DNA of 64,000 nt from Eledone cirrhosa (lineage: Eukaryota), in assembly GCA_964016885.1 (NCBI GenBank), contig OZ024741.1, forward strand, positions 364,064,001 through 364,128,000. Reading direction: 5' to 3'. The notes beneath the pieces are model-generated. The model worked only from the letters and a program-made list of their open reading frames with translations, was not told the DNA's origin and made no database searches. A program made the translations under genes and the position numbers. Positions within the stretch are counted from its first letter, which is position 1. Every line of letters starts with the position of its first letter. Shown one piece after another: positions 4,601 to 53,700 of this stretch.

Positions 4601-5104
4601 ATATATATATATATATATTCATATAACAAGGAATAAATTCTTTTTCTTTTCATCTCTTTCCTGTTGAAACATGTTTAAGATAAATAAAATGTTTTAAATT
4701 TCATCTGCCTTATCTATCTATTAACCTTTTTGATTACAAACTGCTTGGTTTTTGATTACAAACTACTTTGTTTTAATTGTTCGTGCATATATGAGAAACT
4801 TTGTTAAGCTATCCTCCAAACACTAGTTTAATATTGAGAAAATTAGTTAATACTAAATCCTACCAAATTCTTGAATATTTTGATAATTATTTGAAAATTA
4901 TAGGCAGTTTCTTTTATTAGAAATGTGATAATGAAAAGGTTAAGGAACTTTTCCTCTAATTATTTGACTGACATAGCTATGAGAACTATAATAAATAGGA
5001 GGGAGCTGAGATCAGAGCCCTGATGGACACATAACTGTGTGCTAAATTCCTTGTTGAGCTCATACTCAATTCTCATATGTGTGTGAATATATATCTATAT
5101 ATCA

Positions 5105-11837: not shown

Positions 11838-12782
<945 letters not shown>

Positions 12783-12833
12783 AAAGACGTAAAATAAGAA
12801 AATTATAGTAATTAACTTACTTACTTAAATTTC

Positions 12834-12915
12834 ACTCCAACTAATTAGTTTCTGAAAGGGGATATACATAGTCTACAAATGGACACCATGGAGAATCCTT
12901 TCTTCATCAGGGAGT
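12834..12915 (-). ncRNA. Type I HHR with long stem II (family A, copy 1)
   Basis: acucc-CUGAUGA-agaaagg...ccuuuc a-GAAA-cuaauuag-UU-ggagu. Confidence 0.85.
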
Positions 12916-13357
12916 CATTCTCGGCTAAGATTATTGGCAATACGCGGACACAGGGAACTTATACAAAAATAATTCAATGGATCGAAAAAAGCAAGCGCGG
13001 ACTAAATTCCAAGACACTAAAAATTTCACTGCCTTCCTGGTCAGTGGCAAATTCAAAAGAATCAATCACGTGACATCGAGGTTAATCAGTGAGGAGTGGG
13101 GTGTTAAAAAGACAGTAGCCAAACTAATACTATGAACCATAGTAGTAATTTAGGCAAATTTTTGCTCAACAAAATAATTTGGCGATAATTATAAACAATT
13201 AGTATATCTACCAACATATTTATACAGATGTATACTTACGCTAGCAAAGATATAGGTTTTGTCTTAGTAACTTTGTGGTTCAATACAAAGAGATGTATAA
13301 CAATTATATAAAAGACGTAAAATAAGAAAATTATAGTAATTAACTTACTTAAATTTC

Positions 13358-13439
13358 ACTCCAACTAATTAGTTTCTGAAAGGGGATATACATAGTCCTC
13401 AAATGGAAACCATGGAGAATCCTTTCTTCATCAGGGAGT
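13358..13439 (-). ncRNA. Type I HHR (family A, copy 2)
   Basis: Same fold, 524 nt from copy 1. Confidence 0.85.
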
Positions 13440-13757
13440 AATTGTCGGCTAAGATTCCTGGCAATACGCGGACACAGGGAACTTATACAAAAATAATTCA
13501 GTGGATGAATTACTACCAGTCAAATTACTACTATGGTTGATAGTATTAGTTTGGCTACTGTCTTTTTAACACCCCACTCCTCACCGATTAACCTCGATGT
13601 CACGTGATTGATTCTTTTGAATTTGCCACTGACCAGGAAGGCAGTGAAATTTTCAGTGTCTTGGAATTTAATCCGCGCTTGCTTTTTTCCATCCACTGAA
13701 TTATTTTTGTATAAGTTCCCTGTGTCCGCGTATTGCCAGGCATCTTAGCCGAGAATG

Positions 13758-13839
13758 ACTCCCTGATGAAGAAAGGATTCTCCATGGTCTCCATTTGAAG
13801 ACTATGTATATCCCCTTTCAGAAACTAATTAGTTGGAGT
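13758..13839 (+). ncRNA. Type I HHR (family A, copy 3)
   Basis: actcc CTGATGA agaaagg attctc catggtct ccatttga agactatg tatatcc cctttc a GAAA ctaattag TT ggagt. Confidence 0.87.
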
Positions 13840-14015
13840 GAAATTTAAGTAAGTAAGTTAATTACTATAATTCTCTTATTTTACGTCTTTTATATAATTG
13901 TTCTACATCTCTTTGTATTGAACCACAAAGTTACTAAGACAAAACCTATATATTTGCTATATTTATACATCTGTATAAATATATTGGTAGATATACTAAT
14001 TCTTTATATATATAT

Positions 14016-14710
14016 ATAATAGAAATAGTATTTCGCTTCAAGCATAGCTTTATCAGCAGGTCAATACGTAAACAGAGACTCAGATTTGCTGGCCACTGTT
14101 GGCACAGCAAGGAAGAAATAGCAGGTGATGTATTGTTATGGAGTCCATCTCATGGAGCAAGAAACGCTGGTCGTTCCAAGAAGACATACGTCAAGCAACT
14201 TGAGGACGATACTGGATGCATTGCGGAAGAACTGGCAAACGCTATGAGAGACAGAGATGGATGGAGGAAGCGTGTCGTAGAAAACCGAGCAAGCTCGACC
14301 TGATGATGATGATAGCTTTATACAAATATGCATAGAAATTTCGTATTTCTAAAGAAACATGGTTTTAGAAAGCCGTAGCTATGCAAACACTGGGGCTAAC
14401 GCCCTCTGGTGGTGTCCAGCAGAAGTAACAGGGGATAACCATTTATGTATTTCAGGCTTGACTGGCCTTCCACAGAGCGGTCCCTTCCACCACTTGCAAC
14501 TGCAGGACTTGAAAACAGTCGAGAATATACAGTTTTCTCGTCTGTGTAAATGAGGTGATTAATCTCATTTGCATATGAAGCTGCATAAGTTGGCTCAACT
14601 TATAATAGAATAGAAATAGTATTTTGCTTCAAGCATAGCTTTATACAATATGTATAAAAATTTTGTATTTCTAAAGAAACACGGTTTTAAGAAACCGTAG
14701 CTATGCAAAC
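14016..14710 (-). mobile_element. HHR family B: 323-bp monomer, partial tandem, interrupted by an RTE fragment
   Basis: ~110-bp direct repeats at both ends; degenerate HHR at 14438-14481 (accgcu-CUGUGGA-aggcc agucaa gccu-GAAA-uaca-UA-aauggu). Confidence 0.65.
14054..14311 (+). mobile_element. RTE-type LINE 3' end with (TGA)n tail and 10-bp target-site duplication
   Basis: RKQRLRFAGHCWHS...GRSKKTY...AMRDRDGWRKRV; ATAGCTTTAT at 14044-14053 and 14312-14321. Confidence 0.85.
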
Positions 14711-15275: not shown

Positions 15276-15439
15276 TATATATATATGCATAGATTTTGAG
15301 TTTATGTTGGTTGTATACCAACACCTCAGTATGCAGGCTGGAGCACTCAACGAAGTGCGCAGGTTGGTTTGGTTACTCCGGAGTAGTGTAAAATAAAGTT
15401 AAATAAAAGTCAAATGATTAAAATTTAGCTTCGTTTATT

Positions 15440-15494
15440 ACTGCTATATATATTTCAGTGACAGCCATCTTTGGCTGTGACCTCTTCAGGCAGT
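15440..15494 (-). ncRNA. Type I hammerhead ribozyme
   Basis: Mirror of 15725-15781. Confidence 0.85.
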
Positions 15495-15724
15495 TTGAAT
15501 TAGTATGGTATAGACAAGTACATATGTTGTTTAGGTGTATGATATTGTCAATACTCTGATATGCCCAGTTCCTTGCTGGGTTGTTAATTCACTGGGGAAC
15601 TGGAGTCATATGACTCCAGTTCCCCAGTGAATTAACAACCCAGCAAGGAACTGGGCATATCAGAGTATTGACAATATCATACACCTAAACAACATATGTA
15701 CTTGTCTATACCATACTAATTCAA

Positions 15725-15781
15725 ACTGCCTGAAGAGGTCACAGCCAAAGATGGCTGTCACTGAAATATATATATAGCAGT
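15725..15781 (+). ncRNA. Type I hammerhead ribozyme
   Basis: actgc CTGAAGA ggtc acagcca aaga tggctgt cact GAAA tatatata TA gcagt, then AATAAA. Confidence 0.87.
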
Positions 15782-16429
15782 AATAAACGAAGCTAAATTT
15801 TAATCATTTGACTTTTATTTAACTTTATTTTATATATATGCATATGTATATGACTTACTCAGCCCTCACAAGGCATTATACTAGTTTTCTTAATGACAAT
15901 CAGATTAAAAAGGGTAGTTTTTTTTGCCAAAAGCCTTCTCCAGATCAATGAATCTAGGTATAGTGGTTTGTTTGGGACTAAGAAAAATCTTCTGTAGTTG
16001 TCTTACTTAGAAGTAGACATTAGTGATACCATGTTTTAGCATGGTATCACTAAAGCTGTTGTTTCTGATTAGCTTTGCTATAACCCCACCTCTCTCACTT
16101 TGCCATTTTCATTACTTGGTTATCATATTCACCCTTTGGGTACCAACTTGGCCAATATCAACTCTGGTTCTATGGAACATAACATTTCATTTTAAATGGT
16201 TTCTATTTAAGTTAAAATCTAACATGATTTCATATAAAAACCATGTTAAGTTAGTAATCTCAGTAATGAAATAATTAATAATTTTAGGAAATCCTTCAAA
16301 ATTCTTAATTAATTAATTAATTAATTAATTAATTAATTGAAATATGGTGTATTTCATTAGAAATACTAGCAGAAAAACTGCCCTTCGGGTGGTTTTCTGC
16401 TAGCATATGTAGTGTGCATGTTGGTATTA

Positions 16430-49769: not shown

Positions 49770-50553
49770 ATCATCATCATCATCATCATTTTACGTCCGC
49801 TCTTCCCTGCTTGCAAGGGTGGGATGGGTTTTATTCAGCACTCGTCACAGTCTTTCATCATCTCACCACCCCCGTCCATGTTTTTCGTGGTTTACCTCTA
49901 CCACGTCTTCCTTCAACTGGCATTTCCTGGCACTTCTTCACCCATCGGTCATCCTCCATGCGCATCACATGTCCATACCACCTCAGTCTCCTCTCCCGTA
50001 CACTACATTCTATTCCTCTCAGACACAGTTTCTCTCTCAACACATTCATGCTGGGTCACTCACGCACATTTACACTGCACATCCAATGGAGCATGCTTGC
50101 CTCATTTCTCTCCAGCCGTCGCATATCCTCTGCAGTTGCTGCTCATGTCTCACTACCATGCAGCATCACGCTCCTCACACAGGCATCATATAACCGGTCT
50201 TACGTACGCAGGGAGAAACCCTTCTTCGTCAGCAGAGGAAGCAGCTCCCTAAACTTCTTCCAACCCGTCCTTATTCTAGATACTATGGTTTCGGAACACC
50301 CTCCTCCCATGCTAATCTGATCTCCTAGGTACCGGAAGCTACCCACCACTTCTATAGCATCCTCCTGCATTTGAAAAATGTGTCTATCAATGCGACTTCT
50401 ACTGTCTAATTTCCCTGTACATCTACTGCATACATATTTCTCCCTACCTGTTAGTTTGCCTCCTATCCCGCTACATCTCTACACTCAGGATCTGCATTGT
50501 GTGTATTTTATTGAATTTATGCCAGTTCCTTTTCTGCATATCGAACATGGCCA

Positions 50554-50555: not shown

Positions 50556-50589
<34 letters not shown>

Positions 50590-50592
<3 letters not shown>

Positions 50593-50845
50593 GACGTAAA
50601 ATAAGAAAATTATAGTAATTAACTTACTTACTTAAATTTCACTCCAACTAATTAGTTTCTGAAAGAGAATATACATAGTCTCCAAATGGAGATCATGGAG
50701 AAACCTTTTCTTCATTAGGGAGTCATTCTCAGCTAAGATACCTGGCGATGCGTGGACACAGGGAACTTATACAAAAATAATTCAGTGGATGGAAAAGAGC
50801 AAGCGGGCACTAAATTCCAAGACACTGAAAAAATCACTGCCTTCA
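50590..50845 (-). mobile_element. HHR family A, decayed copy (core CUAAUGA)
   Basis: Homologous to 12783-13035 with the same terminus next to (TA)n. Confidence 0.8.
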
Positions 50846-53099: not shown

Positions 53100-53700
53100 T
53101 CATCATCATCATCATCATCATCATCATTTTATGTCTGCTTTTCCCTGCTTGCAAGGGTGGGATGGGTCCTATTCAGCACAACATCTCCCCATTCGTCACA
53201 GTCCTTAGTCATCTCCTCCGTGAACTTCAGTGATCTGAGGTCAGCTCTCACCACCTCTGTCTATGATTTTCATGGTTTTCCTCTACCACGTCTTCCTTCT
53301 ATTGGGATTTCTCGGCACTTCTTTACCCAGCGGTCATCCTCCATGCACATCGCATGTCCATACCAACGCAGTTTTCTCTCCCCCACACTACAACTCATCT
53401 ATGCTTGGTCACCCACGCACATTGACATTGCACATCTAATAGAGCATGCTTCATTTCTCTCCAGCCATTGCATATCCTCTGCAATTGCTGCCCATGTCTC
53501 ACTACCATGCAGGATCATGCATCTCACACAGGCATCATATAACTGGCCTTTCGTTCGTAGGGAGAAACCCTTCTTTGTCAACAGAGGAAGCAGCTCCCTA
53601 AACTTCTTCCAACATGTCCTTATTCTAGATACTATGGCCTCGGAGCACCCTCCTCCCTTGCTAATCTGATCACCTAGGTATCGGAAGCTATCAACCACCT
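53100..53700 (-). mobile_element. RTE LINE 3' fragment
   Basis: VDSFRYLGDQI...WKKFRELLPLL...HGSETW. Confidence 0.85.

What the first reader, a model, noticed from the sequence alone, without database searches (positions are those of the whole stretch)
12783..14001. Retrozyme-like ~525-nt monomer: two tandem HHRs plus an inverted, circularly permuted third copy
Seen: same-strand HHRs are 524 nt apart, so double cleavage would excise a unit-length RNA. The inverted copy (13522-14001) runs through the monomer end and continues into the monomer start, so it was copied from a circular or concatemeric template. There is no credible coding capacity. A fourth copy at 50590 has the same terminus. Known: metazoan non-LTR retrozymes give circular RNAs, usually shorter than this. 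Inference: a larger circRNA-forming retrozyme family.
Basis: partly seen in the sequence, partly recalled or inferred. Interest (0 to 1): 0.75.

Follow-up and report, generated by a model that had tools for sequence, protein, structure and literature searches.

The report
Penelope-mobilised two-armed hammerhead retrozyme
This is one copy of a roughly 525-base non-coding repeat with a predicted self-cutting RNA motif, present at thousands of sites in this animal genome; its fixed ends are those of Penelope-type jumping genes, which likely copied it from one RNA, possibly a circle, so it belongs to a known kind of element.

Summary
Observation confirmed. Two type I hammerheads lie 524 nt apart on the minus strand, a third lies in an inverted arm, and a fourth copy (mutated core) ends at the same site. 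The family has at least 9,366 core matches in the genome, units of 478-571 nt, compensatory stem changes and no ORF.

The 'circular permutation' is the Penelope 'tail'. Arms end at two fixed sites, A and B, 115 nt apart, in (TA)n. In a positional sample, 43 of 52 head-to-head pairs were A+B, none was A+A or B+B, and 9 had a disrupted end; A+A pairs occur rarely elsewhere. 5' ends rise at the cleavage site.

Best reading: a non-autonomous Penelope-like element (non-LTR retrozyme), copied from both sides of a break. The enzyme is probably Hydra-clade, from a shared hairpin and hammerhead build. The template may be a circle, but that is unproven: no RNA data were available, and a linear multimer fits too. 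The size is within the published range. The scan reported what is probably this family before, on other DNA.

The parts
11838..12779 (.). (TA)n microsatellite target, left flank
   Evidence: TRF period-2 array; sequence
12777..13507 (-). Left arm, 1.39 units; 5' end at unit position about 381, 3' end at site A (position 58, window 12777)
12834..12915 (-). Type I hammerhead 1; predicted cut between 12839 and 12838
   Evidence: activity untested
13358..13439 (-). Type I hammerhead 2; predicted cut between 13363 and 13362
   Evidence: activity untested
12839..13362 (-). 524-nt cleavage-to-cleavage unit (predicted monomer RNA)
   Evidence: existence as RNA not shown
13508..13521 (.). Inversion junction: about 9 nt duplicating the start of the right arm plus a short filler
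   Evidence: sequence read directly
13522..14008 (+). Right arm, 0.93 unit; 5' end at unit position 212, 3' end at site B (position 173, window 14008)
13758..13839 (+). Type I hammerhead 3; predicted cut after 13834
13897..14008 (+). 'Tail' between RT start sites A and B (115 nt in unit numbering), structured
13900..13923 (+). Bulged hairpin just 3' of site A; same build as in Hydra-clade PLE ends of this genome
13962..13979 (+). Second hairpin in the tail (ATCT loop) with compensatory changes between subfamilies
   Evidence: alignment columns 246-250 paired with 257-261
14009..14019 (.). Short (TA)n right flank
50584..50844 (-). Separate 5'-truncated copy ending at site A in (TA)n; hammerhead core mutated

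Best explanation
The locus is one insertion of a high-copy, non-coding, hammerhead-motif repeat whose two head-to-head arms end at two fixed sites in a (TA)n tract, and it was likely made by a borrowed Penelope-like (probably Hydra-clade) enzyme that would nick both DNA strands and reverse-transcribe one multimeric or circular RNA from both sites. Shown: the family, the (TA)n targets, the fixed ends A and B, A+B pairing, covarying hammerhead and tail stems, and close identity of units within an insertion. Inferred: (1) tandem units are transcribed; (2) the hammerheads cut inefficiently, probably as dimers through the palindromic stem III, which gives cleaved 5' ends and perhaps monomers that are ligated into circles; (3) a dimeric RT-endonuclease binds the structured tail and primes one strand at A and the other at B using TATA microhomology; (4) both cDNAs run through uncut or re-ligated hammerheads, stop at variable points and are joined head to head, or to the target if only one arm survives. 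I put the template at about 55% circle or repeated copying of one monomer, and 45% linear partly cleaved multimer.
For: Positional sample: 79 loci (80 fetched, duplicate L037 dropped), 134 arms. 124 arms end at A or B, and 118 of those 124 are followed by TA repeats. Of 52 head-to-head pairs, 43 are A+B, 0 are A+A or B+B and 9 have a disrupted end. An independent subfamily adds 7 A+B pairs and 1 A+A among 19 loci examined. Two RT starts bounding a tail, a predicted dimer and extension of both strands are shown in vitro for a Poseidon PLE (PMC11167929). Partial tandems, an inverted 5'-truncated copy and a one-sided tail are PLE hallmarks (PMC8557442). Stem II base: 96.8% Watson-Crick pairs in 158 copies against 79.9% shuffled, maximum 83.0%; covariation score 0.173 with 0 of 500 shuffles as high. 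One subfamily has a matched extra base on both strands of stem I. Within-insertion divergence is 2.7-4.0% against 6.4% between loci of one subfamily, and the two arms share derived variants at 2.5% of sites against 0.44%. 22 of 62 independent TA-joined 5' ends in a 16-position window lie at 0/-1 of the cleavage site (counted by eye; binomial p 3e-6). Hydra PLEs of this genome have two ends, a bulged hairpin after site A (13 of 14 loci with a long tail, by eye) and, in several families, an extra nucleotide on both sides of the stem II base, as here.
Against: There is no RNA evidence of expression, cleavage or circles. No autonomous element with sequence homology was found. The hairpin is not exclusive to Hydra: one Neptune family has it with a 43-nt insert. 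Two arms are joined in sense to Neptune 3' UTRs (L076, L108). Clear A+A pairs exist (L030, L221), plus a disrupted one (L029); the best-hit set gave 11 A+B and 2 A+A among 16 pairs. The core has C.A or A.A at the base of stem II, which may impair catalysis, and the MFE fold of the isolated motif is not the hammerhead (-20.9 against -17.1 kcal/mol). Only 1 of 9 Xenopus retrozyme dimers cleaved in vitro, and cleavage was dispensable for Poseidon insertion in vitro. The 5'-end peak is partly confounded by T microhomology: 14 of the 22 have it, and a control anchor had 10 of 48 at a similar position. Arms are short: 3 of 134 exceed 2 units. Same-index units are slightly more alike than different-index units in 20 of 29 loci (p 0.20), which is the direction a linear master would give.
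Confidence: 0.8

Rival explanations
1. Same element and enzyme type, but the template is always a linear read-through multimer. Hammerheads only trim 5' ends or are largely inactive, no circle takes part, and tandem units are regenerated by template jumps or by re-insertion next to old copies.
For: 5' ends rise at the cleavage site, including in multi-unit arms such as L072 (starts at position 1) and L013. Arms are short. Uncleaved RNA is the dominant substrate for Poseidon in vitro. 20 of 29 loci lean towards same-index similarity.
Against: The lean is not significant (3.3% against 3.7%, p 0.20). In young L031 three units plus the inverted arm differ at 3 of 1,732 compared sites while sharing private variants. 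None of about 190 junctions of the main sample shows an added base at the cut itself (that sample was partly selected on an exact junction pattern). 5' truncation should erode multimers unless something regenerates them (inference).
Confidence: 0.4
2. The mobilising enzyme is a Neptune-type PLE, or several PLE clades, rather than Hydra.
For: Neptune-like ORFs are abundant (10,596 GIY-YIG candidates; intact ORFs) and also end in (TA)n. One Neptune family carries a long-loop version of the hairpin. Two of 43 unpaired arms are fused in sense to Neptune 3' UTRs without TA.
Against: The short-loop, AT-bulged hairpin and the flanked stem II match Hydra best. The fusions involve two different Neptune families, have short microhomology and could be later deletions.
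Confidence: 0.25
3. The copies are truncated terminal repeats (pLTRs) of a coding PLE that was not sampled.
For: The ends have the full PLE grammar, and only about 126 of several thousand loci were read.
Against: 49 complete hammerhead-to-hammerhead units of 478-571 nt have no room for an ORF. The unit persisted through 8 or more subfamilies 73-93% identical, with compensatory changes across it (20 of 141 consensus pairs). No GIY-YIG or Hydra locus carried it as its end.
Confidence: 0.07
4. DNA-level satellite or palindrome formation (unequal exchange, fold-back repair) without an RNA step.
For: Tandem and inverted copies can arise at DNA level, and Li et al. discuss local amplification.
Against: Thousands of dispersed loci, two fixed 3' ends, variable 5' ends, A+B pairing and sense-strand RNA covariation.
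Confidence: 0.03

Closest known systems
Metazoan non-LTR retrozymes (Cervera & de la Pena 2020, PMC7229834: passages and part 4 of 6 read; Li, Clavereau & Pollet, bioRxiv 10.64898/2026.07.22.740005: parts 1-3 of 5 read)
   Same: Non-coding, low-GC tandem units with one type I hammerhead each and a palindromic stem III; thousands of copies; proposed to be mobilised by PLEs. The unit length is within the 51-972 bp range of the preprint.
   Different: circRNA was shown there for coral, mussel and axolotl, not here. The passages read do not describe head-to-head arms with paired A/B ends or 5' ends at the cleavage site. Stem II here is about 50 nt long with C.A or A.A at its base.
Penelope-like elements, general insertion structure (Craig et al. 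2021, PMC8557442: passages, section 11 and supplement look-ups; Frangieh et al. 2024, PMC11167929: parts 1-2 of 4 read)
   Same: Partial tandems, an inverted 5'-truncated copy, a tail at one end, AT-rich or (TA)n targets, two RT start sites, and a hammerhead near the end.
   Different: No ORF. The tail is 115 nt, not 30-40. Both start sites carry TATA that matches the target, whereas the Poseidon start sites were reported as non-homologous.
Hydra-clade PLEs of this genome (L161-L196; clade described in PMC8557442)
   Same: (TA)n targets, two fixed ends, a bulged hairpin just after site A, and extra nucleotides flanking the stem II base in several families.
   Different: No alignable sequence homology was seen in the part of the BLAST output displayed (cut at 5,000 characters). 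The Hydra ends lie about 35-41 and 106-113 nt after the cut, against 58 and 173 here. Hydra elements are coding.
PLE minimal hammerheads (Cervera & de la Pena 2014, PMC4209133: parts 1-2 of 4 read)
   Same: [quoted passage not shown]
   Different: Here there is also a conserved A before G12, a 6-nt loop 3 and a much longer helix II.

Membership tests
Non-LTR retrozyme | Tandem units, each with a type I hammerhead | tested here: met
   28 of 134 sampled arms cross two or more cleavage sites
Non-LTR retrozyme | No protein-coding capacity; no LTR/PBS/PPT layout | tested here: met
   (ORFs); the layout is tandem units (PBS and PPT were not searched separately)
Non-LTR retrozyme | Dispersed, multi-copy mobile family | tested here: met
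Non-LTR retrozyme | Hammerhead self-cleavage | not testable with these tools
   Indirect only: covariation and 5' ends at the cut
Non-LTR retrozyme | Expressed as linear and circular monomer RNA | not testable with these tools
   No RNA holder was listed
Penelope-like element (autonomous) | RT plus GIY-YIG ORF between pLTRs | tested here: not met
Penelope-like element (non-autonomous dependent) | Two fixed 3' ends (tail), partial tandems, inverted 5'-truncated arm | tested here: met
Penelope-like element (non-autonomous dependent) | Sequence homology to the pLTR of an autonomous partner | tested here: inconclusive
   None in 50 GIY-YIG loci and 20 Hydra loci, a small sample; shared structure only
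Hydra-clade dependent | (TA)n targeting and shared end signals | tested here: inconclusive
   (TA)n met. The hairpin is closest to Hydra's, but a variant occurs in one Neptune family.
Type I hammerhead ribozyme | CUGAnGA and GAAA core, NUH site, three helices, open helix I | tested here: met
   Rfam models miss it; non-canonical pair at the base of helix II

The most novel reading that the evidence does not exclude
Each two-armed insertion records one dimeric Hydra-type Penelope enzyme bound to one circular 525-nt ribozyme RNA, with its two active sites starting at sites A and B on opposite DNA strands and rolling round the same circle. The RNA is a structured, viroid-like replicon that has evolved under RNA-level selection through successive subfamilies while keeping only a small hairpin signal from its host element.
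Probability: 0.35. Interest if true: 0.7.

Novelty: new member of a known kind. Interest (0 to 1): 0.4.

Why it matters
Retrozyme mobilisation by PLEs through circular RNA has been proposed, but in the papers read here it is not shown mechanistically. This family gives countable genomic footprints: near-strict A+B pairing of arms, 5' ends at the hammerhead cut, and a shared hairpin with coding Hydra elements. These turn the proposal into a defined in vitro test with a named RNA, two predicted start sites and a candidate enzyme. The hammerhead build (long stem II, mismatch at its base) is missed by Rfam. As a category, though, it is a known kind, and the scan has noted similar families in this genome several times.

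Tried and rejected
1. A transcription-start hotspot at the hammerhead's 5' edge. 9 of 30 unpaired arms in the sample began at positions 445-461, but genome-wide TA-joined 5' ends were 48 there (control 5) against 39 in a control window. Not supported.
2. An extra G at the cleavage junction as a template-jump scar. There were 664 matches, 96 of the first 100 with G, but all 35 junctions in 19 loci examined carry the extra base with a matching one in stem I. It is a subfamily trait.
3. RNA evidence. No RNA holder was listed. The three contig runs of unknown kind added nothing on expression.
4. Rfam. No hammerhead hit among the 150 of 224 rows shown for the window, or in the 4 hits for the stretch.
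5. Autonomous partner by homology. None in 50 GIY-YIG loci, where two incidental unit hits were not checked further than orientation and position, or in 20 Hydra loci. The published Hydra-1_Obim hammerhead pattern had no match in G000. PF26215 is not in the library.
6. Core-conservation rate was not used: the positions were mis-indexed and the sample was selected on the core.
7. One search used a mis-registered structure string and was replaced. Row L070 had wrong coordinates and was left out.
8. Lunse et al. (PMC5785218) is not held. I saw only its title in a reference list, so it may already describe this core variant.
9. Literature searches listed no paper on this family; only listings were seen for the papers not opened.
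Dropped before counts: L008, L010 and L037 (duplicates).

Full report
Observation. The window holds a left arm on the minus strand (12777-13507, 1.39 units) and a right arm on the plus strand (13522-14008, 0.93 unit), head to head, between (TA)n tracts. Hammerhead cores start at 12910(-), 13434(-) and 13763(+). The motif is type I: stem I ACUCC/GGAGU, core CUGAUGA, a long stem II, GAAA, and a two-pair stem III with a palindromic 6-nt loop, with the cut after GUU. I number the unit from the first base after the cut (524 nt). A fourth copy at 50584-50844 ends at the same site as the left arm and has a mutated core. No frame inside the element exceeds 74 aa. Rfam does not detect the motif.

Family. 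An exact 20-nt core pattern has 9,366 matches in G000 (control 0; possibly capped). I read the 30 best DNA hits (28 after removing duplicates) and a positional sample of 80 loci from the start of contig C1 (79 after removing one duplicate). 49 complete units of 478-571 nt fall into eight subfamilies 73-93% identical, and a ninth was found later.

RNA structure. The hammerhead covaries: the basal stem II is 96.8% Watson-Crick in 158 copies against 79.9% shuffled, and the covariation score exceeds 500 of 500 shuffles on a 10-row alignment (relatedness inflates such controls). The stem II base is flanked by C.A (102 copies) or A.A (55 copies). A circular consensus fold of the eight consensuses has 20 of 141 pairs with two-sided change. 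Sense-strand z-scores are -5 to -6 and antisense -2.7 to -3.6, on 20 shuffles each for three subfamilies.

Ends. In the positional sample, 124 of 134 arms end at one of two sites, A (about 58) or B (about 173), and 118 of those run into TA repeats. Of 52 head-to-head pairs, 43 are A+B, none is A+A or B+B, and 9 have one or both ends disrupted. The best-hit set gave 11 A+B, 2 A+A and 3 disrupted pairs; the ninth subfamily gave 7 A+B and 1 A+A. This is the PLE signature: partial tandems, an inverted 5'-truncated copy and a tail at one end only (PMC8557442). The tail is the stretch between two RT start sites (PMC11167929).

Template. Units within an insertion differ by 2.7-4.0%, against 6.4% between loci of one subfamily, and they share derived variants three to six times more often. 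The two arms therefore come from one RNA or one source locus, though gene conversion is not excluded. If the source were a linear transcript of an old tandem, units at the same index in the two arms should be more alike than units at different indices. They are 3.3% against 3.7% apart (29 loci, 20 in that direction, p 0.20), which is not decisive and is compatible with a circle. Arms are short: 50 of 134 exceed one unit and 3 exceed two; the longest seen elsewhere is about 3.3-3.5 units.

5' ends. TA-joined 5' ends numbered 39 in positions 493-508 and 40 in 509-523, with 22 at the cut itself (62 independent of 66 hits, by eye; 8 of the 22 have no microhomology). Positions 1-36 gave 178, of which about 53 of the first 100 listed end within 1-16 (by eye). 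This step at the cut suggests that cleavage happens in vivo and that some templates were linear. The anchors differ, however, and TA microhomology confounds it, since a control anchor also had 10 of 48 at a T. A suspected start-site hotspot and an extra-G jump scar were tested and rejected.

Partner. The genome has many Neptune-like ORFs and 698 matches to a Hydra peptide pattern. None of 50 GIY-YIG loci or 20 Hydra loci carries the unit as its end. Following a lead from an earlier AI note (e1-8805697), I compared end structures. Hydra ends lie about 35-41 and 106-113 nt after their hammerhead cut and have a bulged hairpin just after the first site (13 of 14 loci with a long tail, by eye). All eight unit consensuses have the same build; a shuffled sequence gives it 6 times in 8,000. 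Several Hydra families also have extra bases on both sides of the stem II base. Against a Hydra-only reading, one Neptune family has a long-loop version of the hairpin, and two of 43 unpaired arms are fused in sense to Neptune 3' UTRs.

Comparison. It matches metazoan non-LTR retrozymes (PMC7229834), which a 2026 preprint already proposes are non-autonomous PLE derivatives, with units of 51-972 bp. So neither the size nor the PLE link is new. In the same preprint only 1 of 9 dimers cleaved in vitro. No RNA run was listed for this stretch, so expression and circularity are open. Earlier scan notes describe what is probably this family (e1-8805697, e1-10311171) and parallel families. They are unchecked AI notes and are not counted as support.

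Verdict. A real, ordinary-kind element with informative insertion footprints: a new member of a known kind, interest 0.4. Confidence is 0.8 for PLE-mobilised non-coding retrozyme, about 0.55 for a circular or repeatedly copied monomer template, and about 0.65 for Hydra as the enzyme. That the genome looks like a cephalopod's is my inference from its repeats and from earlier notes; it was not tested.

Noticed in passing
window 15285-15835: A second head-to-head hammerhead family (cores at 15489(-) and 15730(+)) with one long-tailed and one short-tailed end in (TA)n; it has a long-loop version of the same bulged hairpin.
   Followed up: partly
window 33183(+), 33490(-), 42637(-), 49163(+), 4534(+): Further hammerhead motifs of other repeat families; 49163 has a very long stem II, and 4534 looks like a Hydra-type end like the one in L015.
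   Followed up: partly
L108:1600-3017; L076:2675-4900: Unit arms fused in sense, without TA, to the 3' UTR of two different Neptune PLE families; either template switch or later deletion.
   Followed up: partly
L053:1-2450: Two-armed array of a 311-nt hammerhead unit (4+4 motifs seen, nearly identical), nested against an arm of this family.
   Followed up: no
window 13600-13607 (+) and 13839-13860: A TCACGTGA palindrome (E-box-like, label recalled) is invariant in all eight consensuses about 160 nt upstream of the hammerhead and is a possible promoter element. GTAAGT donor-like repeats follow the cut, and an AG precedes stem I in several subfamilies.
   Followed up: no
G000 listing, e.g. C2:370562152: Minimal head-to-head insertions with one arm of only 15-25 nt show that both primings can complete with very short cDNA.
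   Followed up: no
L031:2331-3817: Very young insertion: units differ almost only in A/T homopolymer length (571 against 556 nt), so the subfamily was recently active.
   Followed up: partly
window 14080-14310, 49800-50500, 53130-53700: LINE-like 3' end and RT fragments (label from recalled resemblance, not tested).
   Followed up: no
L141, L142, L143: Neptune-like PLE open frames of 844-1096 aa (stop to stop), possibly active elements.
   Followed up: no
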